Positions 25,175 through 45,193 of a stretch of 64,000 nucleotides of DNA are shown here, piece by piece. The DNA is from Candidatus Woesearchaeota archaeon (GTDB lineage: Archaea > Nanobdellota > Nanobdellia > Woesearchaeales > JACPBV01). The stretch covers positions 2,952-66,951 of the forward strand of contig JAHWHQ010000036.1 of NCBI GenBank assembly GCA_019323195.1, given 5' to 3'. The notes beneath the pieces are model-generated. The model was not told the DNA's origin and did no database searches. It saw only the letters and a list, made by a program, of their open reading frames with translations. How positions within the stretch are numbered: position 1 is the stretch's first letter; each line of letters opens with the position of its first letter. The position numbers were made by a program, and so were the translations under genes.

Positions 25175-26653
25175 TTGGAAATGAAAAAAGCCCAGATAAC
25201 AGTCTTCATAGTCCTAGGGGTAGTGGTTATGGTAATAGCCGGGATGGTGTTCTTTATCAACAGCAGGACATCAGAGGCAGGCCTTGAGAACAGGGTCAAT
25301 AAGATCTATACGGATTTTCTTGGCAGTACAGGCATCAAGGGATATGTCACCAACTGCCTTGAGAGGTCTACAAAGGAGGCTGTAAGGCTGGCAGCGCTGC
25401 AGGGAGGGAAGATATATGATTACCAGGCTGGGGGGGGCTATAGCCTTCCTTCTGTTAACCAGCATGAGAAGATAATGCCTTTTGAGGTTGATGGGGTTGT
25501 GTATAATGTGAGCTATGGTATAAGGGCCCCTAACAGGCTGTTAAGCATCTACCCTAAGTATAATTATTACCCTTATCCAGGCATGCTGGTCAATAATCCC
25601 CAAGCCCAGAAAGCACCTAAGAATGCATACAGTTCTGTTTTTGCACTTCTGGAAAATGATATCCATAACAGGTATTCATTAACCAGCCTGTGCAACTATT
25701 ACGGCCCTAATACCTATGACCTCTCGCCGGATGCAGCCTATACCTGCGAGACAACTACCCTGACAAACATCTCTTTCCAGCAGTACCTCTCTGCCTTTAT
25801 ATTCAACATGACAAAGGAATGCGTCAACTTCCCGCAGTTCAGGTCGCAGACAAAATATAACATCTCTGATGAAAATATAAAGGGTTTTGTCCTGATAGGC
25901 AATGATGATATCTTTGTCAACATAAGGTACCCTATAACTATATCGATAAAGAACTATCCGCCTGTAACAAAGTTCCTGGAGTTTACATACCGGCCTAAGA
26001 TAAGGCTGAAGAAGATGCATGAGCTGGCAGTGCACCTTATAGGGTACAGGCCGGTAGGTGAGAAGGTCAGGGCAGAGGCGGATAATATATTCTTTAATAT
26101 AACCAAGAACGACTCTAATGACTGCTTCGGGGATGATGATATTGGAAGCCAGCCATGCATACTCAAGGGGATGAATGTAACTAAGGTAAGGGATTACTGC
26201 CTTGGAAATGCGCTTTGCGATGAGCAGCTTCCAGGCATGCCTGAGCATTACATGTATACAGATATAATAAACATAACAGACAGGAACTCCTCAATAGACG
26301 GCAGGCCATTAACACTTCTTTTTGCGGTAGAGAACAGGGATCCTGCCCTGAATAATACCAACCCAGACCTGTCTGACCCTTCTTTTGACCCCTCTATGGG
26401 AAAAATAGTTGTTAAGAAGGACGATACTATCACTTTTTTTGCGCTTGACCCTGATGAGGATAATGCGGTCTGTAAGCTAGGGGATGATGAGGATTATTCA
26501 CCTGATGATATTTCTCTTGGTGATTTTACAGATAATGGGGAGTGCGGGTTCAAGGCAAACAAGATCGGCACTTATAGGGGGATAATAAACGTTTCAGACG
26601 ATGAAGGGCTTTATGATTATCAGTATCTGGAGATTACTGTTAATTCTCCTTAG
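25175..26653 (+). CDS. Secreted or surface protein with an N-terminal class-III-like (prepilin-type) signal peptide, 492 aa
   Basis: The N-terminus is MEMKKA|QITVFIVLGVVVMVIAGMVFFI, i.e. basic residues, Ala, Gln at +1, then a long hydrophobic helix. The rest is hydrophilic with many N-x-S/T sequons. There is no enzyme motif. Confidence 0.5.
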   Translation: MEMKKAQITVFIVLGVVVMVIAGMVFFINSRTSEAGLENRVNKIYTDFLGSTGIKGYVTNCLERSTKEAVRLAALQGGKIYDYQAGGGYSLPSVNQHEKIMPFEVDGVVYNVSYGIRAPNRLLSIYPKYNYYPYPGMLVNNPQAQKAPKNAYSSVFALLENDIHNRYSLTSLCNYYGPNTYDLSPDAAYTCETTTLTNISFQQYLSAFIFNMTKECVNFPQFRSQTKYNISDENIKGFVLIGNDDIFVNIRYPITISIKNYPPVTKFLEFTYRPKIRLKKMHELAVHLIGYRPVGEKVRAEADNIFFNITKNDSNDCFGDDDIGSQPCILKGMNVTKVRDYCLGNALCDEQLPGMPEHYMYTDIINITDRNSSIDGRPLTLLFAVENRDPALNNTNPDLSDPSFDPSMGKIVVKKDDTITFFALDPDEDNAVCKLGDDEDYSPDDISLGDFTDNGECGFKANKIGTYRGIINVSDDEGLYDYQYLEITVNSP

Positions 26654-26912: not shown

Positions 26913-27053
26913 GTGAAAGAGAGGATTACGATTACTATTGATAAGGAACTTCTTAATTGGTTAGATAAGAAAATAGATGAAAAGGTTTTTGCAAACAGGT
27001 CTCACGGCCTAGAGTTTCTTATAAAACGGAGGATGGAGGGGGAGAATGAATAA
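26913..27053 (+). CDS. Ribbon-helix-helix (CopG-family) small DNA-binding protein, about 46 aa, GTG start
   Basis: VKERITITIDKELLNWLDKKIDEKVFANRSHGLEFLIKRRMEGENE. It shows the CopG-type signature (RITITIDxELxxxLD...NRSxxIxxLI). The stop TAA at 27051-27053 overlaps the ATG of the giant gene at 27046 (sequence gagAATGAATAAgg). The start codon is uncertain and could be GTG at 26913. Confidence 0.55.
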   Translation: MKERITITIDKELLNWLDKKIDEKVFANRSHGLEFLIKRRMEGENE

Positions 27054-33000: not shown

Positions 33001-33084
33001 TGTAGCGGGCTTGAGCATGATTCAAACCCTTCAGACGGCATGTGCGATACCGGAGAGGAAGGACAGGGAGGATGGGGTGATTAG
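27046..33084 (+). CDS. Giant secreted Cys-rich surface protein (2012 aa) with a CarboxypepD_reg-like domain
   Basis: Sec signal with ALA|DEG. The N-terminal 400 aa are full of CC doublets (GCCY, GCCCQ, YCCVDG, YCCEKE...YCCDQY, GYCCADG). A carboxypeptidase-regulatory-like beta-sandwich (GYVYNLLDNARIADADINAYRFGTKIGYTVTNNNGEYTLSNMPYGGYKIYASKDGF) follows, then multiple Ig/Fn3-like beta domains, and a second Cys-rich C-terminal region. TAG stop is immediately followed by the ATG of the next gene. Confidence 0.85.
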   Translation: MNKAARYSLVLVVIVLMAMLSFKLALADEGCCYAKATHQCTYSIKGTPQETTETACLVSSNNIWDDDPTCAGIPECEMGCCCQSNQPLYTIRGECDVRKLEWVKTNEEGCNYHCISGIPACKPNCEVNGGECVGVGGKLAAAGKRYCGADGSLYDNWADCLQCMEEASLPECGLDAAITVKCTYDDIIYPPENGGYLCLNGVYVPGDKSACVGDCSTGGTMITADCFCGGVKKSDGYCCVDGMHYPTQAGWKACNDAAGSTCEGVGFVCSDACDTAEDRNAAFDYGSCTDATKCCPTDLPYCCEKEAVSYAYCCDQYEECTGTDLYNEPESDPYRYIYKSCNAGDLSKKPCTAECKRLECSQGNWRINSGANTHPTLTHCYCDGSPRDISFDGGYCCADGGDGKYQTTPCIIETGDVLGYVYNLLDNARIADADINAYRFGTKIGYTVTNNNGEYTLSNMPYGGYKIYASKDGFKANSIDVDLIAPQLQNKNIGLIPYTEGPCDSCSPPAPVITAEPVRGKEGIELSWNIPEDTSFCSSSLTDSFVIEKKEAAKKLAEMRTDQAILIDNDVSWDTTYTYSTTAHYTTNAISTSQDSFPVSPGSAFCEGIYSDDMEFCLSDGFIQADTNNYRYRCDHNNNLVNVYLSSPSSQMGPSCTDEGKDVCVGPDTTGETECIEQPDCREMGDFKPFGLYYDEDSCLDNGDSWCYYDSSTTIIDKCDNCRAKSCYDYKSKEACEADNCRAGGLYIDRETGANNGCKWIHTWEEYGKGICYDPDFNGQECGLCSNEGDLFFNTGCTQTICSALGKCYSSSDGCMECAEGTACEDYENEEACVGIVGNEQEIDFVNNAGCGINNIPLEIQPSNDACGLGVCKWDSTMKSCYKDADDDLVEDCGEGEVICMKDSKPPVTSPEMSIPNIGLSGHHIQFIVPYQGWSYAEKFYYCVDASNTCCPTSEKNLDCVVNTGKCTVIGGVNPVEDLADSEYTSKGPGIYYIRYYSVDNYKNTEEVKSLAFYLDKDPPDYSLTYETEKEGEKEGQAISSLEINLESDECISCSYMMVVPLIGDPVKSGGFVLGEADKVSKLEFSGLEDGIYTCTTNCFDDVGNEMKKDWQIVVDAMQEITQFYPYDKTLKKTQIDFSVNTTDDSTCTATGILGYSGADITFTQEQISRNKFAHTYSGTFGDGTYHLEVDCEPVLGVKKPDSVFLSFTVDAIPPATVVKSGGEVFDFSAWHRTDTEPPLKLSLECDDPDLGDQPGEFGCEHTSEYIKYCLGPSCTLSDDDPSSIPITGDYSTYISYYSVDKGGNIETTQTKLVKVDNGVPQLNLNPPANDVVNTPEITITGTYSDGLSGVKEVVIFIIDYDDVSFKSIKIAPAPSGLLSYNTQLFGGRNIILVSVEDNAGNKIEDSFEVFYDLDAPLIDAEVFNHEGYGIRNKSGGRYAEYGKDITLGAGITDDSSISSAKVTLECNTESSFSRCSSYTKTTFDLEQDPYDAKIFGKVLSGSLPIGNYTATFEAWDNFNQYGKTNLWFLVNDTAKVSFQLRPDAPPVTYSPSLTLTGTASEAGILVSAYLCDENCLNCGDTAASSDYGDATNDPKEGFRDVALVDLVYLDPPKEGETTILWKGSAFDSITRHIGAGDFLRFSDDATGTFYEILSINSAYHPLGFYINTIELRNEIKQNINRGTVSAYDYGTPTGWFELGLALSSGTQCVVVAAERIATGVRAKSIARKITYDTSGFDITLEEPSDGVVNYVDFDAAGNSMPIRIKTERGGSGFRADCVISHTADIIAGGFAGKVMGTTDKITHIFTLNSDSCKENGGDYCLIGGTSAYPVNHHHYAVECTPSDPSYANMASQTTEVCFTAATYGLQTGGLPRGVNICQASTGCGSSVPVACGGAVDCTDTDHSSSQSDCIEEDICKWSGSYGCGTSCHPGFEDNDNDGVCIDASVVCSNNDNDQTNCLAQNACKWCPAGATSNANKCLQESCDTCSGLEHDSNPSDGMCDTGEEGQGGWGD

Positions 33085-36000
33085 ATGAAGAAGAGATACC
33101 TCGCCTTAACATCATTCCTTGTTTTGGTCAGCCTAGTCCCTTTTGCGTTATCCTATAACTGGATGAAATCATCACAGGGAACAGATATAACCAACAACCC
33201 TTCTCCTACTCCCTGGGTGAAGTATTATCCTGATAATTACAGGCCGTTAATGGGGGAGACCTATATAAAGGATAAAAGCACCAACCATAAGATAGTCTTA
33301 GGTAGCGGATTTGAGAATCCTGTCGATACATACAGCTCTGATGCAACCGGCAGCTATGTAAAATGGGAATATCCCTTTTCCGCGAATCTGCCAACAGGCA
33401 AATACGCATTCCATACAAAAGCAGCAGACCTTTATAGCAACGAATTTGAGTATGATATGGATATTATCATCGAGACAGTCCCTCCAACTGTAAAACCTTA
33501 TTCAAATCCAACTGAAGGTGCCAGCGGATTTATCTTTGAAGGAAATACGCAGACAGACCAGATAGAGCTGGGAAGCGATGTAACGATAAAAGCCAAGGTG
33601 GAGGATAAGGATAATGGGGTGGATATTAAGGATACGGTAGTTACGCTTGTTAATGTTGTTGTCAGCGGAACGGCTGCTGATGGCACTCCAATTACTCCTG
33701 TTACTTACGAGATGGAGGATGGGAATAACGATGGGGTCTACGGGCTTACTATCCCTTCCCCAACTGGGGGGGATTATATGGCTTCTTTTACAGCCTATGA
33801 CAGCCTTTCTGACACTGTTTCAGGAACAGGGAATATAAACGATACAGTCAGTGTCAGCTTTACTGTGGGGGATACGATAAAGCCGGCTAAGCCTGTAATA
33901 TGGCCATTGCCGCAATACACACAGAAAGGGGATGCAGACAATCAGCTTACGGTTGTCGGATATATTGGGGAACAAGGTACTGTAGATGCCCATGTTTTCC
34001 AGCCAGGAGAATCCATCCTTTCCTTCTCTACAACAGCACAGGATGGTGCTATGCCATTAGAGAATATAGCCCTGCAGGAGAAGTATCTTGCAGGCGGGGG
34101 GTATTATGAAGAAGATACAGAGATATACATTCCAGATTATGATGCAGGCAAGATAACCTCTGGGGATTACCTTGCCTTCTATAACCACCAGAGGACAAAT
34201 TTTGCAAGATACGGCGTGGCATCTAAAGATAATGTTCCCGGGGATAGAACAAAGGTCGTTCTTGTACAGGGGCTGGAGAAGGACGTTCCTGTCAATCCAA
34301 CATCATACATCAGCGTGGCAGATAAGCCTTTGCCTCCAGGCTATTTTGAGATTGGCCTTACCTTATACCATGGCCAGAATAAGGTACAGCTGCTCAGTTA
34401 TGACGCAGCAGGGAATTTCGATGATATAGAATTCAGCATAATAAGCGATTCAGTAAAACCAAAAGGAAGGATCATATCTCCCTATGATGAGATAACGAAT
34501 AATGATAAGACGCCTGTGAGCTTAGAGCTTGACGGGACAGGATCAGATATCGACCCGGATTCGATTGTTATGGACATCAATGGGCCATGCAATATGCTTG
34601 ACCTTGCTGTCGGAGAAGATCTGGCCTTTGAGGGGGAGATAGCCACATTTGAAATAACCGGCAAGAATTACTGCAAAGGAAAGGACCAATACCTTAATGG
34701 TGATTATACAGTGACTTTATCCGCAACAGACATGGCCGGCAATGAGAATACCTCTATTGAATTTGGCTTTAAGGTAGATACTTCAGCATCTTCGGGCCCG
34801 GAATTAACTATAATTAATGGTAATTCACTGGAGCTAGAGGGAACATTATATACGAGCGAGACAATGCCTGAAATAAAGGCTTCCTTCCCAAAAGATACCC
34901 AGGTAAACAGCTATTCTCTCAAGGATAAGACAAGCGGAACAGAACACCAACTGGAATATACTAAGCTGGATGATAAACATTTCACGTTTGAGGTTCTCTT
35001 TCCTGCCCTTGCTGAGGGAAGTTATGTATTTGAAATCAATGCAAAAGAAGATCGTCCTGGAGCGGTCTCTACCTCGTTCTCTTTTGACATAATCGTGGAT
35101 ACAACAGCGCCTAATCTGGAGAATATTATCGTTCCGTCAACAGTAGAATATGGCTCAGAGGATGTTGTTAAGCTGAAAGCGACAGACCCTGTTGGTGTTG
35201 ACAGCGTCAGGATAAAGATAGGGGACAGTTATTATAGCCTGGACAGATATGAAAATGGCCTATTCAATATATCCACAGAAGATTTCCTGCCTCATGAGCC
35301 GCCTTTTACTTATGCTATCTTGTTCGAGGCTAAAGACCTGCTGGGAAATGAGCAGCTGACTGATCATGGCGAGATCGAATTTACAGACTCAACGCCTCCT
35401 GAAGTTACTGTCTTAGAGCCTGAGACTGGCTATACTAATAAGGCCCCAAATACAATAAAGATAGGGACAGATGACCCCTCATACTGCAGGTTCTCCTGGA
35501 GAGGGGATTTCCTTGAATCGTTTGTCTATGACTTTAGCTCATCTGACAAGCTGACACATAGTTATGACATTGACATTTCAACCCATGATGATGAATGGGA
35601 CCAGGATCCTCCCAATACATTCAACTATTATGTCGAATGCAGCAATATATTTGACCTAAGCACAGGAATCCTTAAGATGCAGATAATAGTTGATACTGAT
35701 TCGCTCAATATAATAAGCGCTGATTCTGCCAAATTGTCCTATTACAGCGATAATTCTGAGAATACCATAACAGTAAAGACCAATAAGCCAGCAAGGTGCA
35801 GGTATTCAGATAATACAGATGAGGATTATGAGAATATGGACAACTCTATGGGGGAAGAATTTGTAACGGAAAACTCTGTAACAGAAGAATTTGATAACGG
35901 GGATCATCAGCTTTTCATAGACTGCAGGGACAAGGCAGGAAATACTGCAGACAATCCTACATCTGTAAGCTTTACAGTTGATGTTGATGAGGATGTTTCT

Positions 36001-39000
36001 ATATTATCTTCAGGGCCGGGAGGGGTGCTCAATGACAATACCCCTACCTTATGGGCAAAGCTCAACAAGGATGCAGAATGCACATTTGAGGAAATGCAGC
36101 CGACATCACATACAACTATAAGAGAGGGAGGAAGGATATATTATCTCTATTACCATGATGTTGCCAGCCAGCTGGATGAAGGGCTGCATGAGTATAAGGT
36201 TAGGTGCTTTAATGTAAAGGCAGTTTATGATGATATCTCCTTTACCTTAGATACAGAACCTCCAGAAAAACCGGAGATAACCTCTCCTGCAGATGACAGC
36301 CTTGCAGGGGACAGCCTAACAGTGACAGGAACAACCGATGATGATGCAAGAAAGGTTTTCTTTTATGTTGACAATGCTTATCTTGGGTATGCGGATGTTG
36401 ATGGCCAAGGCTTTGCAAAAACATTGGACTTATCTGGCTTTGATGACGGGGATCTAGTCATCATGGTTAATGCAGAGGATGAATTCCGGCAGAATGGAAG
36501 GAGCGGGGAGGATTCTGTTACGGTTGTTAAGGATACAGTCTCGGAGCAGCCAAGACTGGATGAACTTCCACAATATACTAATAGCGGTTTTGCTGAAGTT
36601 TTAGGAAGCGCTGAGCCAGGTTCTACTGTCTACTTTTATAGGTTTTACCTTCCAGGGCAGGAAGGAGATTCTGTTGCAACTACAACCGCAACTTCGGATG
36701 TTGATGGCCCATTTTCATCCTCCCTTAGCTTAAATGAAGGAAGCAATTATATCTATGCCAGAGCAACAGACACAATGGGCAATCCATTAAGCGAAAGCTC
36801 GAATGAGGTATTTATGATCTATGATGCTCAAAGCCCTTCATTCACCGGCATGAGCCCTGCTGATGGAGACACTGGCGTTTATGGAGAGAAGCTGATAATT
36901 AGCGTTTTGGTTTCTGATAATTACGAAATTAATGAAGACAGCGTAAGCTTCCTTATAGACAACAATGAGGCTGTATATGAAAAGGCTCATGAGCAGGGGG
37001 GGATAAGGCTAACTGTGGAGGCTGACCTTGATGATGGCCAGCATACCGCTTATGTAAGCGCTGAGGATGCTTCCGGCATCCTTGGGTATGCGGAATGGAG
37101 CTTTGATACTTTTATCCCTGTCTCATGCCTTTCCTGGGCCTGTGACAAGGAGGCAGACAGGTGGTGCGACAATGGCGCCTGGAACACCGCAGATTACTGC
37201 ACATATTGCGGCATAGAGGATTCTGATTGTGAATCTGAAGTTACATGCGCAGCTGACGAGTGCGATACATCAGCTAACGAATGGTGCGACAGCGGGGTAT
37301 GGAACACCGCAGATTACTGCATACACTGTGGCATGGAGGATTACCAATGCGGCGCTTTGCCTCCAAACTTAATAGGATTTTCAATTAACGGGGATGCAGC
37401 AGAACAGGGGGATTATGCAGATAATTTAGAGATAGAGGCAGGGTTTGAATATGGCAGGGAGGCTGTCCTGGAGGATATCCAGCTTGATGATCAGACCATA
37501 GCCAACTGGCAGGACATTTATGAGACTGAAGACAACATAAGGTTCTATTATGACCTTGGAAGCCTGCAGGAAGGTGGGCCTTATAAGCTTACTATCAGGG
37601 CCTCTAATGAAGGGTTTGCCCAGAGCACAGATTCCCTTCTGTTTTATGTCGATACCTCAGCCCCTACAATAGACATAGATGATTCAATTGATACCTTAGT
37701 CAGCAGCCCTTATGTCCCTATCTACGGGACTTATGCAGAACCTAATCTCAGGCATATTAAGCTGAACAATATCCTGTTAGATAAGGCAGATATAGGGATA
37801 GGCAGCTTCAGCAGGAACCTTAACCTCCCTGTTGATGCTGTGACTGATGTCCAGGCCGTCATTGAGGATAAGGCAGGAAATACAGGGCAGGATAGCATCT
37901 CTATAGAGGTCAGGACAGGAGAACTTCTATTGGAGATAGAAGAGCTGCCTGCAATTACAAAAGAGGATTCTTTCACTTTGGAAGGAACGACCATGCCTGA
38001 TATTGATGTTGAAATAGATGTCAATGGAGATGAAATTCTAACTCTTAATTCTGACAGCAACGGGGACTTTTCACAGCAGCTGGATATGGATAACGGGCTG
38101 CATGACGGGAATAACATGATCATCGTAACGGCAGAGGATGGTGCAGGAAGAACAGCATCTGTAAAAAAATATGTGCATATAGACAGGGAAGGGCCTGCCA
38201 TAATATCAAGAAACCCTGATGCTGGCGAGCAGGGTGATTTCAGCAGGATAACCCTTACACTAGAGGATATAAGCGGGATAGCAGAGGATTCTGTCGTCCT
38301 GAAGCTGGACGGTGAAACAGTTCAACATAATTTCAATGCCCTCATAGGGAGCCTTTCATATGGCATCTCTTCCCTGGAGAAAGGAAGCCATACCCTTGAG
38401 ATAAGCTCGGAAGATAACCTTGGCAATTCGATGAGCAGCTCATGGGATTTTACGATAAACAGGGGTGCTCCGCTTATTGTTATGGTATCTCCTGCAACTG
38501 ATTTTGTGGATGAGCTGCAGCCTGTCTTTGAGCTTGAGATAGATAACTATGATTCTGTTGAGCAGCCAACTTTAGTTGACTCTGATGAGAATGCTGTTGA
38601 TTTAATCTTATTGTCTAAAGACCCATTCAGGTACATGAGTGCCGCTTTGTTGGATGATGGCCAGACATATAAATTCTGGATAAAGGCTGCAAAAGAAGGG
38701 AATGTTGCTGAGCTGAATAAGTATATCACAGTGGATACTACCCTGCCCGAGATAAGGATCGACAGGAAAGCCCTTCCTGATGCTACAGGAAAAGAGATTG
38801 TTGATGTGGAAGGGACGTTTGCAGAGGATAATCTTGAAATAATAACAGTAAACGGCATTGAGGTTTCCCCGCTTGACATGGCACGGGGGAGGTTTATTGT
38901 AAGGGATGTTCCTTTGGGCGAGACAACTACAGAGATAAGTGCGGTCATAAGGGATAAGGCAGGGAATGAAGGGAGTGACACTACCTATGTAGAGGTGGAC

Positions 39001-41892
39001 AGGGATGCCCCTCCTCTTACGATAAGCAGCCCTGCAGAAGGGCAGGTGTTCGGAGACAGCACCCTTATAGTATCTGGCGAGACAGAGCCTGATGCTTTAC
39101 TTTCTATCAACGGCTATTATTACAGCAAATCTGCCGTTTTAGATGACGGGTCATTCACTGTTAAGTATACTATGGCGCCAGGAGATAATGCCCTTCTTAT
39201 TACTGCTTTGGACAAGGCAGGCAATGTCGGATCTGAATTGTTAAATGCCTATTATGATGTTGTATCTCCTGAGATAACGGCTATCAAGCCGGATAAGAAT
39301 ATGAACAAGGCTCCTGTTGAGATCAGGGCAAATCTTAAGGACAGGTCGCAGATAACTAGGGTTGCTATATCTATATCTGATGATAATGGTTATTATTATA
39401 ATTATATCCTGCCTCATGATGAATTAGAATCAAGCCAGGAAAGCCTTTTATACCTATATTCCCCTCCAGAGGATGATACCTATACGATAACAATAACAGC
39501 TGAGGATGAATTCGGAAACAGGAACAGTAAGAGCAAAGAATTCCTTTTTGATACTGACATACCTTCAGAGCCGGCTTTTAACCTTAATGGGATGGTAATA
39601 AGCGATGATTCTCCGCAGCTCATATTCCAGTTCGAGGAAGAGGTCAACGAGCCTTCTTTGAGCATAAGCGCATCCCTTGAAAGCTCACCAGACCATAAAC
39701 AGTTCGTGTATTCAACAAGCGTGCTTACCGACGGGATATACCCTTTAGAGATAACGGCCTCTAAGACTGTAGGGAAAGGCTCGGAAGCAAGCTATTCTTT
39801 TGAGTTTACAGTCGATACAACCCCTCCTGTGATTACAATAGACGATTCTGTGCCTGACTTTGTTGGCCTTCCGCCCTTGGTTGATATAAGCGGTGACTGC
39901 TCTGACGCTAACCTGGAGGGAATAGGCTTATCTGTTGACGACGATTCAATATATGTCAACTGCGAGGATGGAAGATACCTGGCTGAGGGTGTTTCACTTG
40001 GATCAGATAAGGGTATTGATGATGGGGATAAGCAGATAATTGTCATGGCTTTGGACAAGGCAGGAAATACCAATTCTGCCTCTAAGGTGATAGAGCTGGA
40101 TACAGGATACCCTGATATTGAGATAACCGGAATAACCAATAATGATGATATAAAATTTGTTTCTGAGATTGATACTTATAAGACAAATGAGGAATCACTT
40201 ACTATCCTGGGGACATACCAGGACAGCAATTTTGATACGATAGTTGTAGAAGTCAACGGCATAGTGCTCGATTACCCCAGCCTTACGCTGGATGAGGCCT
40301 TAGGAACATTTGAGCTTGATCTAGAGCTGGATGGAGATGACGGAGAGGAGTTCGAGAATAATATAGTCCTGACAGCAAGGGACAGCTCAGGGCTGGAGGG
40401 CATGGCAGACATTACAATAATAAAGGACATGAAAGGGCCTTCTATAGCAGAGTTTGAGCCCGCTACCAGGGTTGTGGATAATCAAATGCCCTTAATAACT
40501 ATAACCACCAACGAGTATGCAAGTATGTGTACATTAACTTACATTACTGATGTAAACTTCTTAAAAACAGAGCCATTTAACATGGTGGAGGACAATACCA
40601 AGTTTTCTGTCCAGATACCTGTCAATCTTAAGGATATAACAGAAGCACAAAACCTGGACATAACCTGTCTTGACGCTTTTTCAAATGTGGGAAAAGAGAC
40701 CATCCCCCTGACAGTTGACCTTTTAGACCCTTCGATAGACAGTTTTGATCTTTTCTATACTATGAAGATACCATGGGAGACCACTTCTGACTACAAGAAA
40801 TATCTTATCAAGGGACTGAATTCTCTTGGAGGGACAGCAGCAAGCATAGCCCTGAACGTCAAGCCTAGCGAAGATGCAAGATGCGCCTATTCCGGCTCAG
40901 AGGCCGGCTATTTTAATAATCATGAATATGCCTCAGGCCTGATGCTCTCAGACAGCACACATACACTGGACGACGGAACAGAGTATACTTTTAACATAAT
41001 CTGCGAAGACAAGGCAGGAAGGCTGTCCGAGGTAAAGGTTATTGATGTATTGGTGGACAGCGACCACCCTGTCACTGCCCCTTCAATAGACCTGGACTCA
41101 CCTCCAGATTTGGAAGGGCATGTTTTCATTACAAGAAGCCCCACCTTTGAGGGCTCGATAATATCTTTAACACCCGGGACCGATATCACAAGAAGCCAGC
41201 TTATAATCAACGGGACAACCTATGACCTGGCCCTTGATGAGGACGGTATGTTTTCTCAGACTATAAATACGTTGCCTGCTGATGCTGTCTACCCCTTTGT
41301 GATCCAGGCCGATGTCTCGGAAGATGTGCCTTCTTCAGTAATCGAAGGGTGGATCAAAGTGGATACTACAGGGCCAGGCGGCTGCGGGACTGTTGCTGGC
41401 GTCACTTCCTGCACCGGTGAGCCAGCACAATCAACAACACCTGTTACAGGAATTATTTGCGGGGATGACCAATGTGACTACAGGGAGAACTGCGTAGAGG
41501 ACTGCATACTGAGGGTTGACCAATACAGCCTCTTAACCATGTCTTCATTAACCAGAAAGAACCTCATTGACATATACGGCTATCCAGAGACAGAACAGCT
41601 TCCTTTTATCCTGCATTCGGCCTATTATTATTATCCTGATGATACATACCTGCTTGTCGGGATCCATCTATTTGAGTCTTCCAAGGAATCGGCCGGCTTT
41701 TTAGCCGAAACCCTTGAGGAAGAAGGGGCAACATCATATAAGATAGGCACAAATACTGTTTATAGGACTTCAGACTCAATATTCTGGTTAAGCGACAATA
41801 AGATAATAATAATATGGACCTATTACGGATCCTCAGATTATCTTGACCTGGCTTCTGCTTATCTTGCGAGGTATCCAAGCACAACGGTCTAA
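33085..41892 (+). CDS. Giant secreted protein (2935 aa) made of about 25 tandem Ig-like (Big/cadherin-like) domains plus a C-terminal Cys cluster and globular domain
   Basis: Sec signal is MKKRYLALTSFLVLVSLVPFALS. Domain boundaries recur as VDTTAPNL, VDTSAPTIDIDD, VDRDAPPLTISSP, VDTTPPVITIDD and VDTTGPGG. An internal near-identical duplication lies at about 37141-37350. The start is directly adjacent to the upstream gene's stop. Confidence 0.85.
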   Translation: MKKRYLALTSFLVLVSLVPFALSYNWMKSSQGTDITNNPSPTPWVKYYPDNYRPLMGETYIKDKSTNHKIVLGSGFENPVDTYSSDATGSYVKWEYPFSANLPTGKYAFHTKAADLYSNEFEYDMDIIIETVPPTVKPYSNPTEGASGFIFEGNTQTDQIELGSDVTIKAKVEDKDNGVDIKDTVVTLVNVVVSGTAADGTPITPVTYEMEDGNNDGVYGLTIPSPTGGDYMASFTAYDSLSDTVSGTGNINDTVSVSFTVGDTIKPAKPVIWPLPQYTQKGDADNQLTVVGYIGEQGTVDAHVFQPGESILSFSTTAQDGAMPLENIALQEKYLAGGGYYEEDTEIYIPDYDAGKITSGDYLAFYNHQRTNFARYGVASKDNVPGDRTKVVLVQGLEKDVPVNPTSYISVADKPLPPGYFEIGLTLYHGQNKVQLLSYDAAGNFDDIEFSIISDSVKPKGRIISPYDEITNNDKTPVSLELDGTGSDIDPDSIVMDINGPCNMLDLAVGEDLAFEGEIATFEITGKNYCKGKDQYLNGDYTVTLSATDMAGNENTSIEFGFKVDTSASSGPELTIINGNSLELEGTLYTSETMPEIKASFPKDTQVNSYSLKDKTSGTEHQLEYTKLDDKHFTFEVLFPALAEGSYVFEINAKEDRPGAVSTSFSFDIIVDTTAPNLENIIVPSTVEYGSEDVVKLKATDPVGVDSVRIKIGDSYYSLDRYENGLFNISTEDFLPHEPPFTYAILFEAKDLLGNEQLTDHGEIEFTDSTPPEVTVLEPETGYTNKAPNTIKIGTDDPSYCRFSWRGDFLESFVYDFSSSDKLTHSYDIDISTHDDEWDQDPPNTFNYYVECSNIFDLSTGILKMQIIVDTDSLNIISADSAKLSYYSDNSENTITVKTNKPARCRYSDNTDEDYENMDNSMGEEFVTENSVTEEFDNGDHQLFIDCRDKAGNTADNPTSVSFTVDVDEDVSILSSGPGGVLNDNTPTLWAKLNKDAECTFEEMQPTSHTTIREGGRIYYLYYHDVASQLDEGLHEYKVRCFNVKAVYDDISFTLDTEPPEKPEITSPADDSLAGDSLTVTGTTDDDARKVFFYVDNAYLGYADVDGQGFAKTLDLSGFDDGDLVIMVNAEDEFRQNGRSGEDSVTVVKDTVSEQPRLDELPQYTNSGFAEVLGSAEPGSTVYFYRFYLPGQEGDSVATTTATSDVDGPFSSSLSLNEGSNYIYARATDTMGNPLSESSNEVFMIYDAQSPSFTGMSPADGDTGVYGEKLIISVLVSDNYEINEDSVSFLIDNNEAVYEKAHEQGGIRLTVEADLDDGQHTAYVSAEDASGILGYAEWSFDTFIPVSCLSWACDKEADRWCDNGAWNTADYCTYCGIEDSDCESEVTCAADECDTSANEWCDSGVWNTADYCIHCGMEDYQCGALPPNLIGFSINGDAAEQGDYADNLEIEAGFEYGREAVLEDIQLDDQTIANWQDIYETEDNIRFYYDLGSLQEGGPYKLTIRASNEGFAQSTDSLLFYVDTSAPTIDIDDSIDTLVSSPYVPIYGTYAEPNLRHIKLNNILLDKADIGIGSFSRNLNLPVDAVTDVQAVIEDKAGNTGQDSISIEVRTGELLLEIEELPAITKEDSFTLEGTTMPDIDVEIDVNGDEILTLNSDSNGDFSQQLDMDNGLHDGNNMIIVTAEDGAGRTASVKKYVHIDREGPAIISRNPDAGEQGDFSRITLTLEDISGIAEDSVVLKLDGETVQHNFNALIGSLSYGISSLEKGSHTLEISSEDNLGNSMSSSWDFTINRGAPLIVMVSPATDFVDELQPVFELEIDNYDSVEQPTLVDSDENAVDLILLSKDPFRYMSAALLDDGQTYKFWIKAAKEGNVAELNKYITVDTTLPEIRIDRKALPDATGKEIVDVEGTFAEDNLEIITVNGIEVSPLDMARGRFIVRDVPLGETTTEISAVIRDKAGNEGSDTTYVEVDRDAPPLTISSPAEGQVFGDSTLIVSGETEPDALLSINGYYYSKSAVLDDGSFTVKYTMAPGDNALLITALDKAGNVGSELLNAYYDVVSPEITAIKPDKNMNKAPVEIRANLKDRSQITRVAISISDDNGYYYNYILPHDELESSQESLLYLYSPPEDDTYTITITAEDEFGNRNSKSKEFLFDTDIPSEPAFNLNGMVISDDSPQLIFQFEEEVNEPSLSISASLESSPDHKQFVYSTSVLTDGIYPLEITASKTVGKGSEASYSFEFTVDTTPPVITIDDSVPDFVGLPPLVDISGDCSDANLEGIGLSVDDDSIYVNCEDGRYLAEGVSLGSDKGIDDGDKQIIVMALDKAGNTNSASKVIELDTGYPDIEITGITNNDDIKFVSEIDTYKTNEESLTILGTYQDSNFDTIVVEVNGIVLDYPSLTLDEALGTFELDLELDGDDGEEFENNIVLTARDSSGLEGMADITIIKDMKGPSIAEFEPATRVVDNQMPLITITTNEYASMCTLTYITDVNFLKTEPFNMVEDNTKFSVQIPVNLKDITEAQNLDITCLDAFSNVGKETIPLTVDLLDPSIDSFDLFYTMKIPWETTSDYKKYLIKGLNSLGGTAASIALNVKPSEDARCAYSGSEAGYFNNHEYASGLMLSDSTHTLDDGTEYTFNIICEDKAGRLSEVKVIDVLVDSDHPVTAPSIDLDSPPDLEGHVFITRSPTFEGSIISLTPGTDITRSQLIINGTTYDLALDEDGMFSQTINTLPADAVYPFVIQADVSEDVPSSVIEGWIKVDTTGPGGCGTVAGVTSCTGEPAQSTTPVTGIICGDDQCDYRENCVEDCILRVDQYSLLTMSSLTRKNLIDIYGYPETEQLPFILHSAYYYYPDDTYLLVGIHLFESSKESAGFLAETLEEEGATSYKIGTNTVYRTSDSIFWLSDNKIIIIWTYYGSSDYLDLASAYLARYPSTTV

Positions 41893-41901
41893 AACCATAA
41901 A

Positions 41902-44697
41902 ATGAAAAAGGCAATAATCGCAGTGGTCTTGTTTTTACTTGTCTTGTCCATAGCCTATTCCCTGGTTGACCTCAGGCCGGATATTGAGATAACGTTTAGC
42001 GAACTGGTCGAAGAGTCTACGATCAACATCAACCTTACTAACCAGTCAGGGGTCCTTTTCGACCTGGACTTAATAACTTCAGACAACCCTACTTTCGTGT
42101 ATAAGCCGGCAGAAGACCTGAAGGAGGGGTTTTATACTGTAAGGGCCCAGGCAGAGGACCTGTTTGGAATACTAGGGGAGGTTATTGAGGTTAGCTTTTT
42201 GCTGCAGATATCCCCCCTGGATGTAAACATCACAAAACCAAGGTTAGGGGTCACCCCTACCCATGTACTTAACCTTACACTGAAGACAGACAGGGATGCG
42301 GTCTGCAACTACAGTTTTATAGGCTTTGAGGAGCTTTATGAGTTCGATTCTACCGGATCACTTGAGCATGACAAAGAGGAGATCTCCATAGCTGACACTA
42401 CTTACCTTTATATACAGTGCCTTGACGGGTATGGCAAGGTCTACCAGGAGATAAAGCAGCTTTTCCTTGACTTAAATAACCCTTCCATAAGCGTATATGC
42501 AGAGGATGTTACCGAGCCACCGCTTGAGACAACACTTAATGTCAATTCCAATGAGGAGGTGATATGCAGGTTTGACAACGACTCTACGGTTTTTGGGGGG
42601 ATGCAGGAGTTTGACAATTATGATGAGATGGATGAGGATGCTTATGAGCTTAACCCGCAGCAGGTCTTGGACGGGGAACACCTTACTGACGGAAAGCCAC
42701 ATACCTTTTTTGTAATGTGCAGGGATAAGGCCGGGAGGCTGTCCAATGCGGCATCTGCAACCTTTAACGTGGATACTGAACAGCCCGCAGCTGTAACCAT
42801 ACATTACCCTACAGGGCAGCTGTCATCTTCTCTCTTATGGTTCAATGTAAGCACCAATAAAGTCGCTGACTACTGCCAGTACACCAACAGGTCTGATAAG
42901 ACGGGATATATCACGTTCAGCGTCCAGGGAAAGACGCACATAAGCTCAGGGCTGGACCTGCTCCATGACGGGGCATATACCTATCATGTCCGGTGCAGGT
43001 TCCATGATGAATCAATAGGGACATGGTATGTCGAGGCAAGCACCAATTGTGTCATTGACAACACGAAACCACAACTGCCTTATGTCAATATGGACCCTCC
43101 GGCTGCCCTTAAAGACCTCAATATAACAGACAGGACCTATAAGGACTACCAGTTATGCGGGGAATGGGAGGGGGAGGACAACCAGAGCTCTATCTCCCAA
43201 TACGCCTATTATGCCTATTGGGACAGGAGCACGGACATAATGATAGGCAAGGACGTGACATCAGGCACTAGCGACTGCATAGACCTTGACCTTAACGATT
43301 CAGAAAAATATTACTTTAAGGTAAGTGCGCGGAATTCCGTAGGGCTATGGAGCGACAATATGAGCAGCTCACCTATCACGGTTGATGTAAGCCTTACACC
43401 CAAGGGCTGTGATAATGGCCTCAAGGATGGGGATGAGACAGACGAGGACTGCGGAGGAAGCTGCGACAGCTGCTCGAACGGGATGAACTGCATCATCAAT
43501 TCCGACTGCGACAGCAGGTACTGCAATTCAAGCAATAAGTGCGCAAAGCCAAGATGCGATGACGGGATAAGGAACGGTGCAGAAACCAGCACCGACTGCG
43601 GGGGAAACTGCGACAAATGCAGCGTTGGCAAAACATGCAACGAGAATAGGGACTGCAAAAGCAACAACTGCGATAAAAGCACAGGCAAATGCGAGGAGAT
43701 GCTGGACAAGTGCGAGAATAATGAGCTGGATCCAGGAGAGACGGACGAGGACTGCGGAGGGGACTGCCCTGCCTGCGGGATAGGAAAGAGCTGCGATTTT
43801 GATTCTGACTGCATAGAAGGGGCAAAATGCGAGGAAGGGGCCTGCTTACTTGACTCTGACGGGGACGGGATAGTGGACAGCAAGGATAACTGCCCGGACC
43901 TTGCTAATGAGGAGCAGGCGGATGTTGACGGAGATGACCTTGGGGATATGTGCGACCCTGACTCTGACAATGACGAGCTTCCTGACTCTTTTGAGCAGCA
44001 GTATTTTGAGTGCGTCACGTGCGCAAACCCTAACGATGATCCTGATAAGGACGGGCTTATGAATAAGGAGGAATATACCTATAATACAAACCCCATGAGG
44101 AAGGATACGGATGAGGACGGCTATGCTGACAGGGAGGAGATTGACAAAGGGACAGACCCCCTTGACCCACGCTCCCATCCTGGGGGAGGATTCCTTAAAT
44201 CTATGGTGATACTCTCTATCGTTGCTGCTCTTGGTGGAGGGGGGTATTTTGCATATACGAAGCTTGTCGTTAAGGGGAAGCCTTTCATACCTCCAAGGGC
44301 GCCTGCTGCAAGGGGTGCTGTAAGGAAGGAGATCAGAAGGCCGGTTGCACTAAAAGGCCCGGTCCCAAAGCCACCCCTAAAGCCGGAACAGCCCCCTTTG
44401 AAACGCCCGATGCCAAGGGCCCCAATGAAGAAGCCCGTAGCACCTGCAACGATGAAAACTGTCAGGCCTGCACCTATGCTTAAAAAACCCGCAATAGGCA
44501 GGGATCTTGGAGCAGAACCGAAGATAAGGAACAAAGTAAAGGCAAAAGAGGAGGGGAATATCTTCAGCAGGCTGTCTGAGATAGCGGAAAAGGATAAGGT
44601 TAAGCAGATTGAGAAGAAGATGGAATTTTCACACCTGAGCGATAAGGAGCTTAATGACAGGATCAGGAACCTGAAGAAGGAGCTGAAGGTAAAGTAA
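41902..44697 (+). CDS. Surface protein (931 aa) with Ig-like domains, three Cys repeats, thrombospondin-type-3-like Ca-binding repeats, a C-terminal TM anchor and a Pro/Lys-rich cytoplasmic tail
   Basis: Signal is MKKAIIAVVLFLLVLSIAYS. There are three repeats of about 48 aa of form DxDCGGxCxxC...C...C. The TSP3-like region is DSDGDGIVDSKDNCPD...DVDGDDLGDMCDPDSDNDELPD...DPDKDGLMN...DTDEDGYADREEIDKGTDPLDPRS. The TM helix is FLKSMVILSIVAALGGGGYFAY. The tail is PPRAPAARG...PVPKPPLKPEQPPLKRPMPRAP... and ends in a coiled-coil-like segment. Confidence 0.8.
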   Translation: MKKAIIAVVLFLLVLSIAYSLVDLRPDIEITFSELVEESTININLTNQSGVLFDLDLITSDNPTFVYKPAEDLKEGFYTVRAQAEDLFGILGEVIEVSFLLQISPLDVNITKPRLGVTPTHVLNLTLKTDRDAVCNYSFIGFEELYEFDSTGSLEHDKEEISIADTTYLYIQCLDGYGKVYQEIKQLFLDLNNPSISVYAEDVTEPPLETTLNVNSNEEVICRFDNDSTVFGGMQEFDNYDEMDEDAYELNPQQVLDGEHLTDGKPHTFFVMCRDKAGRLSNAASATFNVDTEQPAAVTIHYPTGQLSSSLLWFNVSTNKVADYCQYTNRSDKTGYITFSVQGKTHISSGLDLLHDGAYTYHVRCRFHDESIGTWYVEASTNCVIDNTKPQLPYVNMDPPAALKDLNITDRTYKDYQLCGEWEGEDNQSSISQYAYYAYWDRSTDIMIGKDVTSGTSDCIDLDLNDSEKYYFKVSARNSVGLWSDNMSSSPITVDVSLTPKGCDNGLKDGDETDEDCGGSCDSCSNGMNCIINSDCDSRYCNSSNKCAKPRCDDGIRNGAETSTDCGGNCDKCSVGKTCNENRDCKSNNCDKSTGKCEEMLDKCENNELDPGETDEDCGGDCPACGIGKSCDFDSDCIEGAKCEEGACLLDSDGDGIVDSKDNCPDLANEEQADVDGDDLGDMCDPDSDNDELPDSFEQQYFECVTCANPNDDPDKDGLMNKEEYTYNTNPMRKDTDEDGYADREEIDKGTDPLDPRSHPGGGFLKSMVILSIVAALGGGGYFAYTKLVVKGKPFIPPRAPAARGAVRKEIRRPVALKGPVPKPPLKPEQPPLKRPMPRAPMKKPVAPATMKTVRPAPMLKKPAIGRDLGAEPKIRNKVKAKEEGNIFSRLSEIAEKDKVKQIEKKMEFSHLSDKELNDRIRNLKKELKVK

Positions 44698-44698: not shown

Positions 44699-45193
44699 AT
44701 GATGGCTAAGAAAGGACAGATACCAGGCCAGATATTTATCTACCTCATCGCTCTTATCTTGTTTTCACTTATCCTGCTCTACGGCTATAACTCAATAAGG
44801 GGGTTCAAGGAAAAGTCCGAGCAGGTGTCCTATATCAAGTTTAAGACAGACCTTACCTCAATGGTGAAAAGGGTTTCGCCGGATTATAACACGCTGAAGA
44901 GGGAGAAGCTCTTTATAGGAGGGGATTATACAGAGGTCTGTTTTGTGCAGAGCTATAAGAAGGAGGATAATTTTGATTTTATAAGGACCCATATAGGAAA
45001 TCTCATAATACAGGACAGTTTTGAGAGCAGGGTGGACAAGAACGTGTTTTTGTTCAAGAAAGGGATTGCGGAGTCCTTTGATGTAGGAAATATAAATGTT
45101 ACTGGCGGTTCTGTCTGCATACCGGTAATAAGCGGCAAGGCAAGGATAGAGTTTAAGGGCATGGGGGACCATGTTTTTATATCTGGCTGGTGA
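44699..45193 (+). CDS. Archaeal type-IV-pilin-like protein (class III signal peptide), 164 aa
   Basis: The N-terminus is MMAKKG|QIPGQIFIYLIALILFSLILLYG, i.e. basic residues, Gly, Gln at +1, then a hydrophobic helix. This is the classical prepilin-peptidase substrate layout. It starts 1 nt after the upstream stop. Confidence 0.6.
   Translation: MMAKKGQIPGQIFIYLIALILFSLILLYGYNSIRGFKEKSEQVSYIKFKTDLTSMVKRVSPDYNTLKREKLFIGGDYTEVCFVQSYKKEDNFDFIRTHIGNLIIQDSFESRVDKNVFLFKKGIAESFDVGNINVTGGSVCIPVISGKARIEFKGMGDHVFISGW

What the first reader, a model, noticed from the sequence alone, without database searches (positions are those of the whole stretch)
41902..44697. The 931-aa protein combines extracellular TSP3 Ca-binding repeats, a single C-terminal TM helix and a Pro/Lys-rich cytoplasmic tail
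This is the only protein in the cluster with a clear C-terminal membrane anchor (FLKSMVILSIVAALGGGGYFAY). After the anchor comes an intracellular tail of about 160 aa. The tail has PxxP-rich basic repeats (PPRAPAARG...PVPKPPLKPEQPPLKRPMPRAPMKKPVAP) and a terminal coiled-coil-like segment (EKDKVKQIEKKMEF...LNDRIRNLKKELKVK). Extracellular parts include Ig-like domains, three repeats of about 48 aa with the form DxDCGGxCxxC, and thrombospondin-type-3-like Asp-rich calcium loops. The topology resembles a eukaryote-like transmembrane receptor or anchor. It could tether the secreted giants to the membrane or signal across it. PGGGF precedes the TM helix, but the long tail argues against a PGF-CTERM archaeosortase signal.
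Basis: partly seen in the sequence, partly recalled or inferred. Interest (0 to 1): 0.55.

Follow-up and report, generated by a model that had tools for sequence, protein, structure and literature searches.

The report
Membrane anchor of split giant adhesin
This gene encodes the membrane-anchored end piece of a giant calcium-binding surface protein of a tiny DPANN archaeon (Woesearchaeota), and its intracellular tail carries a short conserved motif, shared by about a hundred related giant proteins, that may link attachment outside the cell to something inside it.

Summary
ORF 41902-44697 encodes a 931-aa type I membrane protein. It has a signal peptide, five beta-sandwich domains, three 8-Cys repeats, genuine thrombospondin type-3 repeats, one TM helix (aa 764-788) and a 146-aa basic, Pro-rich, Cys-free tail.

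The source is a Ca. Woesearchaeota (DPANN) MAG. The "anchor" reading is supported and the "eukaryote-like signalling receptor" reading is not.

Fusion/fission evidence is the key result. The three consecutive genes g2012, g2935 and the 931-aa gene match the N-terminal, middle and C-terminal parts of single anchored giants (1600-6200 aa) in other DPANN. Closer relatives have two genes. All versions are bracketed by the same two genes with pilin-like N-termini (p492 upstream, p164 downstream).

The C-terminal module consists of a last TSP3 repeat, a TM helix ending G-G-Y-x-x-Y, a Pro/basic linker and the motif D-[VI]-F-x-[KR]-L-x-x-[IL]. It recurs at the C-terminus of 103 representative proteins. 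The motif occurs 100 times against about 1 expected, and 21 tails have two or more copies.

No Pfam, NCBIfam or PGF-CTERM model covers the module, and I found no paper describing it. What the tail binds remains unknown.

The parts
41902..44697 (+). 931-aa type I membrane protein, the anchored C-terminal piece of the split giant
   Evidence: ORF. 100% identical to NCBI KY366_02830, Ca. Woesearchaeota. Orthologs are aligned.
41902..41961 (+). Sec-type signal peptide (aa 1-20, MKKAIIAVVLFLLVLSIAYS)
   Evidence: Hydropathy 2.87. Helix 3-19, followed by a beta domain from aa 26. The ortholog consensus is ..VVLA|AD. The cleavage site is inferred.
41977..43383 (+). Five tandem beta-sandwich (Ig/FN3-like) domains, aa 26-494, each with a conserved Cys pair
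   Evidence: AF2 pLDDT 75-92. Big_13 hit. Foldseek matches tandem Ig/FN3 rods such as GhpA, SiiE, RTX adhesins and gp130. Invariant Cys at 135/173, 222/273 and 325/365.
43408..43851 (+). Three 8-Cys repeats (aa 503-650), C-x-N-G-x-x-D-x-x-E-T-D-x-D-C-G-G-x-C-x-x-C...
   Evidence: Repeats are 45-49% identical to one another. All 24 Cys are invariant in 14 orthologs. No Pfam or PDB sequence match. 37-48% identical relatives occur in Myxococcota.
43852..44169 (+). Ca-binding thrombospondin type-3 repeats (aa 651-756): a eukaryote-type Cys-containing T3 pair, then TSP3_bac repeats ending in DPLDP
   Evidence: Pfam TSP3_bac and TSP_3. Family profile versus COMP 1.5e-41 and TSP-2 8e-35. The Asp ladder is invariant.
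44179..44265 (+). PGGGF plus TM helix (aa 760-788) ending G-G-G-G-Y-F-A-Y
   Evidence: Translation. Helix 764-788. G[YF]x(1,2)[YFW] at the TM end in 92 of 104 modules.
44266..44556 (+). Disordered Pro/Lys/Arg-rich cytoplasmic linker (aa 789-885)
   Evidence: pLDDT about 30-40 with no secondary structure. Net positive and Pro-rich. Length and sequence vary among orthologs.
44557..44592 (+). Conserved tail motif NIFSRLSEIAEK (aa 886-897), family consensus D-[VI]-F-x-[KR]-L-x-x-[IL]-[SA]-K
   Evidence: Translation. F888 and L891 are, with P825, the only invariant tail residues in 14 orthologs. 100 occurrences in 104 tails against 1.1 expected. Amphipathic, muH 0.57 against 0.32 background.
44641..44685 (+). 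Terminal K/E-rich helix (aa 914-928, DKELNDRIRNLKKEL), conserved only in the ~930-aa orthologs
   Evidence: Alignments. Low-confidence helix. Weak sub-threshold DUF1192 hit only.
44699..45193 (+). p164, a 164-aa partner with a pilin-like N-terminus (MMAKKG|QIPGQIFIYLIAL...), 1 nt after the target's stop
   Evidence: A homolog directly follows the target-family gene in L001, L003, L005, L007 and L008, and follows after one intervening gene in L006. It also follows in 12 further archaeal genome loci. AF2 pLDDT 90: helix 7-59 plus a beta head. No Pfam, NCBIfam or Foldseek pilin match.
33085..41892 (+). g2935, an unanchored giant (2935 aa of Ig-like repeats), the middle piece of the split giant
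   Evidence: Signal peptide and no C-terminal TM. Big_13 and Glucodextran_B repeats. Fused to a g2012-like part in the L003 3055-aa protein, 30-33% identity over about 1400 aa. The target starts 9 nt after its stop.
27046..33084 (+). g2012, an unanchored Cys-rich giant (2012 aa), the N-terminal piece of the split giant
   Evidence: Signal peptide and no TM. 25-31% identity over 1000-1700 aa to the N-terminal parts of the L001/L003/L005 giants and of anchored giants P0021, P0044, P0050, P0091 and P0112. The g2935 ATG follows its stop codon directly.
26913..27053 (+). 46-aa RHH-like ORF overlapping the g2012 start, a possible operon regulator
   Evidence: Translation. Conserved in L001 and L003. 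Only weak RHH_1 and RHH_3 hits, E 0.08-0.12, below cut-off.
25175..26653 (+). p492, a protein with a pilin-like N-terminus (MKKA|QITVFIVLG...), the upstream bracket of the locus
   Evidence: Homologs lie upstream of the giants in L001, L005, L007 and L008 (blastp 1e-12 to 1e-35 for L005, L007 and L008). No Pfam or NCBIfam family.

Best explanation
The 931-aa protein is the membrane-anchored C-terminal subunit of a giant surface adhesin/fibre of a Woesearchaeota (DPANN) archaeon. In this genome the giant is split into three co-transcribed genes: g2012, g2935 and this gene.

It is exported by a Sec signal peptide and held in the membrane by one C-terminal helix, so the N-terminus is outside and the C-terminus inside.

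Outside, five Ig/FN3-like domains form a stalk. Three disulfide-knotted repeats and a Ca2+-loaded TSP3 wire sit next to the membrane. The unanchored giants are held on this base by non-covalent association, which is inferred.

Inside, a roughly 100-aa disordered Pro/Lys/Arg linker presents a short N-capped amphipathic helix (D-[VI]-F-x-[KR]-L-x-x-[IL]). I take this helix to be a docking peptide for a cytoplasmic partner or for the inner membrane leaflet, coupling or positioning the adhesin.

Shown: the architecture, the topology indicators, the fusion/fission series, the reuse of the module and the motif enrichment. Inferred: physical tethering of the giants, a host-adhesion role and what the tail binds.
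For: Architecture and topology:
- Domain architecture.
- Topology indicators across 104 modules: tails have a median length of 144 aa and a median net charge of +20, with 23 Cys in 17,067 aa. Ectodomains carry -0.09 charge per aa, with 5,202 Cys in 109,402 aa.
- The ectodomain has 13 N-glycosylation sequons against 6.9 +/- 2.3 expected. The tail has none.

Split giant:
- The whole target aligns at 25-33% identity to the last ~850 aa of 1600-6200-aa proteins. The N-terminal parts of the same proteins match g2012.
- L003's single 3055-aa upstream giant equals g2012 plus g2935.
- The one-, two- and three-gene versions are bracketed by the same p492-like and p164-like genes.
- Gene junctions are 0, 9 and 1 nt. 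T-runs and a TATA-like box appear only after p164.
- Each piece has its own signal peptide.

Tail module:
- 103 representative proteins match the tail profile, nearly all at their extreme C-terminus.
- The motif occurs 100 times against 1.1 expected, and 21 tails have two or more copies against 0.01 expected. Motif density is 58-fold higher in tails than in ectodomains.
- F888 and L891 are invariant in the orthologs.

Taxonomy: all named members are Woesearchaeota, Nanoarchaeota/Nanoarchaeia or 'DPANN group' archaea.
Against: - No direct evidence shows that the pieces bind each other. No interaction prediction was possible with these tools.
- The g2935 similarity to fused giants outside the close relatives is weak (22-28%) and involves repeated Ig domains.
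- The 103 hits were selected with a profile that contains the motif, so first-copy enrichment is partly circular. Only the second copies are independent.
- The TM hydropathy of this particular protein is modest (1.56) because the segment is Gly-rich.
- No dedicated topology predictor was available.
- The partner of the tail is unknown, and no cytoplasmic candidate is encoded in the conserved locus.
- The organism is uncultured, so adhesion to a host is inferred from what is reported for other DPANN (PMC6792436, PMC6642349).
Confidence: 0.65

Rival explanations
1. The tail motif is an in-plane membrane-binding amphipathic helix, like the membrane-targeting sequences of MinD or FtsA, and not a protein-docking peptide. 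The basic linker and helix would lie on the anionic inner leaflet and stabilise, cluster or sense curvature around the anchor.
For: The motif is amphipathic (muH 0.57 against 0.32 background) and flanked by Lys runs. Multi-copy tails have copies about 16-30 aa apart. No partner gene was found in the locus.
Against: - The hydrophobic face is small (V/I, F, L, I/L) and mean hydrophobicity is negative.
- Strict conservation of F and L with a preferred D N-cap and K/R at +3 looks more like a specific recognition peptide.
- A protein already held by a TM helix needs no targeting helix.
Confidence: 0.3
2. The protein is an S-layer stalk or anchor like SlaB of Sulfolobales. It would be a constitutive envelope component that carries a large outer subunit encoded upstream, rather than a host adhesin.
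For: - The logic matches the slaA-slaB operon (from my own knowledge): a large unanchored protein followed by a smaller one with a Sec signal, beta-sandwich domains and a C-terminal TM.
- One ortholog per locus, in conserved synteny next to aMBF1 and glycosylation genes.
- Sequons are enriched.
Against: - No sequence or fold match to solved S-layer proteins appears among the listed PDB hits.
- The upstream partner varies from 1825 to 3055 aa, is split or fused freely, and is made of adhesin-like Ig repeats.
- SlaB-type anchors, as far as I know, lack a long conserved cytoplasmic tail.
- The locus is embedded among genes with pilin-like N-termini.
Confidence: 0.15
3. The protein is a transmembrane signalling receptor. 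Ligand or host binding outside would be transmitted by the tail to a cytoplasmic signalling pathway, or by regulated intramembrane cleavage at the Gly-rich TM.
For: The topology is type I with a conserved cytoplasmic peptide motif. The conserved Gly-rich TM end (L-G-G-G-G-Y) could permit helix packing or intramembrane proteolysis.
Against: - The tail contains no kinase, HisKA, HAMP, GGDEF or other signalling domain.
- No signalling genes lie in the conserved locus.
- The same tail sits on structural giants of up to 6163 aa.
Confidence: 0.1
4. The C-terminal region is a sorting signal (PGF-CTERM/archaeosortase-like or similar) that is cleaved off, with the protein transferred to a lipid or the envelope.
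For: PGGGF lies directly before a C-terminal TM helix. The TM is Gly-rich.
Against: - No PGF-CTERM or other CTERM model matches, even at E<=10 on the isolated segment.
- The orthologs read PSGNF, PIGNF or PKRSF at this position.
- The tail is 146 aa with invariant residues and repeated motifs, unlike the few basic residues of known sorting signals.
Confidence: 0.05

Closest known systems
Large Cys-rich, Ca-binding, membrane-anchored surface proteins reported for DPANN archaea (Ca. Huberarchaeum, Probst et al. 2018, PMC6792436; SPEARE proteins of Nanohaloarchaeota, Hamm et al. 2019, PMC6642349)
   Same: These are DPANN giant extracellular proteins that are Cys-rich, predicted to bind Ca and membrane-anchored. 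They are proposed to mediate host contact.
   Different: Those reports do not describe this domain order, the split-gene series, the partner with a pilin-like N-terminus or the conserved cytoplasmic tail motif. No homology to SPEARE was tested or seen here.
Thrombospondin / COMP type-3 repeats (PDB 3fby, 1yo8, 1ux6)
   Same: The family profile matches the T3 'wire' at E=1.5e-41. The match includes the DNCP...GDxCD cysteines and the Asp ladder that binds Ca2+.
   Different: Only about 100 aa of repeats are shared. There is no TSP C-terminal lectin-like domain and no EGF or coiled-coil oligomerisation domain. The context is a prokaryotic type I membrane protein.
SlaA/SlaB S-layer pair of Sulfolobales (from my own knowledge)
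   Same: A large unanchored outer protein is encoded just upstream of a smaller Sec-exported protein that has beta-sandwich domains and a C-terminal TM and holds it on the membrane.
   Different: No sequence relationship was detected. Here there are Cys-knot and TSP3 modules, a long conserved cytoplasmic tail, free fusion and fission with the giant, and neighbouring genes with pilin-like N-termini.
Giant bacterial repeat adhesins (SiiE, RTX adhesins, Aureispira grappling-hook GhpA)
   Same: They are rods of tandem Ig-like domains stiffened by Ca2+, and they are the best Foldseek matches of the stalk.
   Different: Those are T1SS- or T9SS-secreted and retained in an outer membrane or fibre. None has a C-terminal TM with a cytoplasmic tail.
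Myxococcota Cys-rich repeat / TSP3 proteins
   Same: They are 37-48% identical over the Cys-repeat plus first TSP3 part, aa ~460-730.
   Different: The matches end before the TM. No tail module or p164 neighbour is present in the myxobacterial loci.

Membership tests
Thrombospondin type-3 repeat (Pfam TSP3_bac PF18884 / TSP_3 PF02412) | Score above the curated cut-off, plus the Asp-rich Ca-binding consensus DxDxDGxxDxxDNCPxxxNxxQxDxDxDGxGDxCD | tested here: met
   TSP3_bac scores 30.8 bits, above 25. TSP_3 scores 23.2 bits, just below 25, for the single sequence. The family profile hits COMP at 1.5e-41 and TSP-2 at 8e-35 with the full consensus aligned.
PGF-CTERM / archaeosortase sorting signal | Match to the curated CTERM model: a PGF motif, a TM helix and only a few basic residues at the extreme C-terminus | tested here: not met
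   No NCBIfam CTERM model hits the tail or the isolated 37-aa segment at E<=10. 146 aa follow the TM. PGF is not conserved in orthologs.
Bacterial Ig-like domain (Big_13) / tandem beta-sandwich stalk | Pfam score above cut-off and a beta-sandwich fold | tested here: met
   Big_13 scores 30.1 bits, above 27. Five beta-sandwich domains have pLDDT 75-92. Foldseek E reaches 1e-13 against Ig/FN3 arrays.
ESCRT-III MIM1 (MIT-interacting motif), considered for the tail motif | Consensus [DE]xxLxxRLxxL[KR] | tested here: not met
   A relaxed regex fits 1 of 100 motif instances. The acidic residue and the terminal K are out of register.
Type IV pilin-like protein (class III signal peptide), for the partner p164 and for p492 | A short basic N-terminus, [KR][GAS] then Q/A at +1, a ~20-aa hydrophobic helix continuing into a long alpha-1, a beta-sheet head, and a match to a curated pilin model or solved pilin fold | tested here: inconclusive
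   The sequence pattern is present and conserved. The AF2 model shows helix 7-59 plus a beta head at pLDDT 90. No Pfam or NCBIfam pilin model matches and Foldseek finds no PDB hit with E<0.1. My crude detector also fires on Sec signal peptides.
Transmembrane signalling receptor | A cytoplasmic catalytic or adaptor domain of a known signalling family | tested here: not met
   Pfam and NCBIfam scans of the tail at E<=10 return only a sub-threshold DUF1192 hit and chance-level hits. The tail is modelled as disordered plus two short helices.
SlaB-like S-layer anchor | Sec signal, beta-sandwich domains, C-terminal TM, a gene adjacent to the large outer subunit, and lattice formation | not testable with these tools
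   The architectural features are present and gene adjacency is conserved. No sequence similarity to solved S-layer proteins was seen. Lattice formation cannot be assessed.

The most novel reading that the evidence does not exclude
The D-[VI]-F-x-[KR]-L-x-x-[IL] peptides on the disordered tails are multivalent docking sites. They would recruit a cytoplasmic machine (a cytoskeletal filament, the pilus assembly platform or a membrane-remodelling system) to the place where the giant adhesin engages a host cell. This would amount to an integrin-like outside-inside adhesion complex in DPANN archaea. The Gly-rich TM end would pack against the TM helix of the p164 partner.
Probability: 0.2. Interest if true: 0.8.

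Novelty: new variant of a known kind. Interest (0 to 1): 0.55.

Why it matters
DPANN archaea make up a large share of archaeal diversity and are thought to live attached to hosts, but how their giant surface proteins are held and controlled is unknown.

This locus contributes three things:
- A clear gene-level model. One adhesin exists as one, two or three genes, always ending in the same anchor and always followed by the same gene with a pilin-like N-terminus.
- A recognisable C-terminal module that can be used to annotate about 100 families of 'hypothetical' giants.
- A short cytoplasmic motif that is a concrete handle for finding the intracellular partner by peptide pull-down, AF screens or phylogenetic profiling.

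If a partner exists, it would be the first outside-to-inside link described for archaeal episymbiont adhesins.

Tried and rejected
- An exact look-up of the protein's contig found nothing on record.
- PGF-CTERM or another sorting signal: no model hit.
- MIM1/ESCRT reading of the motif: the regex fits 1 of 100 instances. A literature check on ESCRT in Woesearchaeota was uninformative.
- A WH2-like or MinD-MTS-like reading was considered from memory only. The spacing differs from WH2. The MTS reading is kept as a rival.
- Pfam and PDB sequence searches for the Cys-rich repeats found nothing.
- Foldseek of the p164 model against the PDB gave no significant match, so the pilin fold is not confirmed.
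It was redone with database homologs.
- Literature searches for this family or the tail motif found only general statements on DPANN giant surface proteins.
- A six-frame scan of the window with the stricter pattern [DE][VAI]Fx[KR]Lxx[ILVM] found no copy. The target's own motif has N at position -1 and also escapes this pattern.
- My crude class III signal detector proved unspecific, because it also fires on the Sec signal peptides of g2012 and the target.
- No tRNA or Rfam feature lies in the window.
Full report
**What is there**

The ORF at 41902-44697 (+) encodes 931 aa exactly as described. The window is an archaeal chromosome segment. It carries TBP, an intein-containing MCM, PolD DP1/DP2, Cdc6 and aMBF1. 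The protein is 100% identical to NCBI KY366_02830 of a Candidatus Woesearchaeota MAG.

Hydropathy shows two hydrophobic segments, aa 1-20 and aa 761-786. The ectodomain has net charge -96 and 37 Cys.

Pfam gives TSP3_bac at 30.8 bits and Big_13 at 30.1 bits, both above their cut-offs, and TSP_3 at 23.2 bits, just below its cut-off. A profile of 14 orthologs hits the type-3 repeats of COMP (E=1.5e-41) and thrombospondin-2 (E=8e-35), with the full DNCP...GDxCD consensus aligned.

The AlphaFold2 model (14 sequences, mean pLDDT 70.9) shows these elements:
- a signal helix;
- five beta-sandwich domains at aa 26-494, pLDDT 75-92;
- three Cys-rich repeats;
- the TSP3 region;
- a TM helix at 764-788;
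- a disordered stretch at 789-886;
- two low-confidence helices at 887-908 and 914-928.

Foldseek matches the stalk to tandem Ig/FN3 rods of adhesins and receptors. The three 48-52-aa repeats have 8 Cys each and are 45-49% identical to one another. They have no Pfam or PDB sequence relative.

**Is it the only anchored protein?**

Yes. The giants at 16715-25021, 27046-33084 and 33085-41892 have signal peptides and no C-terminal TM helix.

**Conservation**

About 13 orthologs at 37-51% identity keep the whole architecture. In the tail the linker varies. F888 and L891 are, with P825, the only invariant tail residues.

**The C-terminal module is reusable**

I searched a profile of aa 752-931 plus five ortholog tails against 1.84 billion representative proteins. 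It found 103 proteins at E<=1e-3, and nearly all matches lie at the extreme C-terminus of proteins of 600-6163 aa. Reading 20 of them and analysing all of them gives the following module:
- A last TSP3 repeat ending DPLDP, then a few residues and a Pro, in 87 of 98 modules.
- A TM helix ending L-G-G-G-G-Y-x-x-Y. The pattern G[YF]x(1,2)[YFW] is present in 92 of 104.
- A basic tail with a median length of 144 aa and a median net charge of +20.
- The motif D-[VI]-F-x-[KR]-L-x-x-[IL]-[SA]-K.

The core pattern [VAI]FxxLxx[ILVMF] occurs 100 times in 104 tails, against 1.1 expected from shuffling (maximum 7 in 500 shuffles). Twenty-one tails have two or more copies, against 0.01 expected. Motif density is 5.9 per 1000 aa in tails and 0.10 in ectodomains.

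Cys makes up 0.13% of tail residues and 4.8% of ectodomain residues. N-glycosylation sequons number 13 in the target's ectodomain against 6.9 +/- 2.3 expected, and none in the tail. These partitions, together with the positive-inside rule, support an outside ectodomain and an inside tail.

One caveat applies. The hits were selected with a profile that contains the motif, so only the extra copies are fully independent evidence.

All members that carry an organism name are Woesearchaeota, Nanoarchaeota/Nanoarchaeia or 'DPANN group' archaea.

**Fusion and fission**

Local BLASTP shows that nearly the whole target (aa ~20-930) aligns at 25-33% identity to the last ~850 aa of many 1600-6200-aa proteins. 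The N-terminal parts of the same proteins align at 25-29% over about 1000 aa to g2012, the gene two positions upstream.

In closer relatives the gene upstream of the target ortholog is a single giant. The L003 giant (3055 aa) equals g2012 (31% identity over aa 1-1744) plus g2935 (30-33% over about 1400 aa). The L001 and L005 giants are likewise g2012-like followed by g2935-like.

So the unit exists in three forms:
- three genes in the window;
- two genes in L001, L003 and L005;
- one gene, for example P0020, P0021, P0081 and P0091.

Each window piece has its own signal peptide, and the junctions are 0, 9 and 1 nt. The split is therefore real and not a frameshift artefact. This is Rosetta-stone evidence that g2012, g2935 and the 931-aa protein act together, with the 931-aa protein as the membrane anchor.

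**Locus brackets**

In every context examined the unit is preceded by a homolog of p492 (25175-26653). A homolog of p164 (44699-45193) comes next after the anchor, often with a 1-4 nt gap or overlap; in L006 one other gene intervenes. p164 homologs also follow the target-family gene in 12 further archaeal genome loci, and in none of the myxobacterial loci.

Both brackets have N-termini of the form [KR][GAS]|Q followed by a long hydrophobic helix. In L005, L006 and L008 they are followed by 7-11 more small proteins with such N-termini.

The p164 AF2 model (pLDDT 90) is a 53-residue N-terminal helix plus a beta head, which is pilin-like in outline. However, no curated pilin model and no solved pilin matches it, and my detector is unspecific. 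I therefore call these genes 'pilin-like' at the N-terminus only.

A 46-aa ORF at 26913-27053 overlaps the g2012 start. It is conserved in L001 and L003 and has only weak RHH similarity.

**Mechanism**

Shown:
- a type I architecture;
- an anchor module reused across DPANN giants;
- a conserved amphipathic, N-capped helix motif on a disordered basic tail (muH 0.57 against 0.32 background).

Inferred:
- The unanchored giants are held on this base.
- The assembly mediates attachment, as proposed for other DPANN giants (PMC6792436, PMC6642349).
- The tail motif docks a cytoplasmic partner or the inner leaflet.

I rejected a MIM1 reading, which fits 1 of 100 instances, and a PGF-CTERM reading. The tail contains no signalling domain.

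**Comparison with known systems**

The protein works like an anchor subunit, in the manner of SlaB, for a giant Ca-stiffened Ig-repeat adhesin in the manner of SiiE or GhpA. It contains true TSP3 repeats. Its Cys-repeat/TSP3 block is shared with Myxococcota at 37-48% identity.

It is not a PGF-CTERM protein, and there is no evidence that it is a eukaryote-like receptor.

**Novelty**

The general class of large Cys-rich, Ca-binding, anchored DPANN surface proteins has been noted before (PMC6792436). Three things appear undescribed in Pfam, NCBIfam and the searched literature: the C-terminal module with its cytoplasmic motif, the 1/2/3-gene series, and the obligatory p164 partner.

My verdict is a new variant of a known kind, of moderate interest.

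Noticed in passing
window 27046-41892; L003 829-9996: g2012 and g2935 are two separate genes here. The ATG of g2935 follows the g2012 stop codon directly, and g2935 has its own signal peptide. In L003 they form one 3055-aa gene, so this is a natural fission or fusion of a giant gene.
   Followed up: yes
window 44699-45193 and 25175-26653; L005 14325-24273, L006 19725-27594, L008 22535-28962: In other DPANN the locus continues into runs of 7-11 small Pfam-less proteins with KK[GAS]Q plus hydrophobic N-termini, possibly a pilin-like gene battery. No pilus ATPase or platform gene is in the window.
   Followed up: partly
window 26913-27053: A 46-aa ORF with a GTG start overlaps the start of g2012. 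It is conserved in L001 and L003 and has weak ribbon-helix-helix similarity (E 0.08), so it may regulate the operon.
   Followed up: partly
window 43408-44000; L023-L087: The Cys-rich repeat plus first TSP3 block has 37-48% identical relatives in many Myxococcota genomes (Polyangia, Sandaracinaceae, Nannocystaceae). No Pfam model covers the repeat. This is either a shared or transferred extracellular module, or an unmodelled widespread domain.
   Followed up: partly
L009, L010, L013, L015 (genome contigs): Records titled 'uncultured Methanosarcinales archaeon (binchicken)' carry 28-47% identical orthologs. L009 and L010 keep the same p164 and aMBF1 synteny as this Woesearchaeota window, so the taxon labels are probably wrong.
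   Followed up: partly
window 2739-6164: The MCM helicase gene is interrupted by an intein with a LAGLIDADG homing-endonuclease domain (1141 aa in total).
   Followed up: no
window 16715-25021: A third giant (2768 aa, 211 Cys) has MopE-type metal-binding motifs, a PKD domain and a sub-threshold disintegrin-like hit. It lies upstream of p492, outside the split unit. A weakly similar 1175-aa protein occupies the same position in L007.
   Followed up: partly
window 61722-62798: A 358-aa lipoprotein-like protein has TSP3_bac repeats and a Cys-rich N-terminal part but lacks the TM-plus-tail module.
   Followed up: partly
window 50001-54000 and 60001-64000: GC content drops to about 0.30, against about 0.44-0.49 in the giant-gene region. 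The drop spans the PMT_2/GT2 glycosylation genes and the window's right end.
   Followed up: no
window 44699-44704: p164 has two adjacent ATG codons. NCBI's record starts at the second one (163 aa), while the ORF from the first gives 164 aa with only a 1-nt gap after the target's stop.
   Followed up: no
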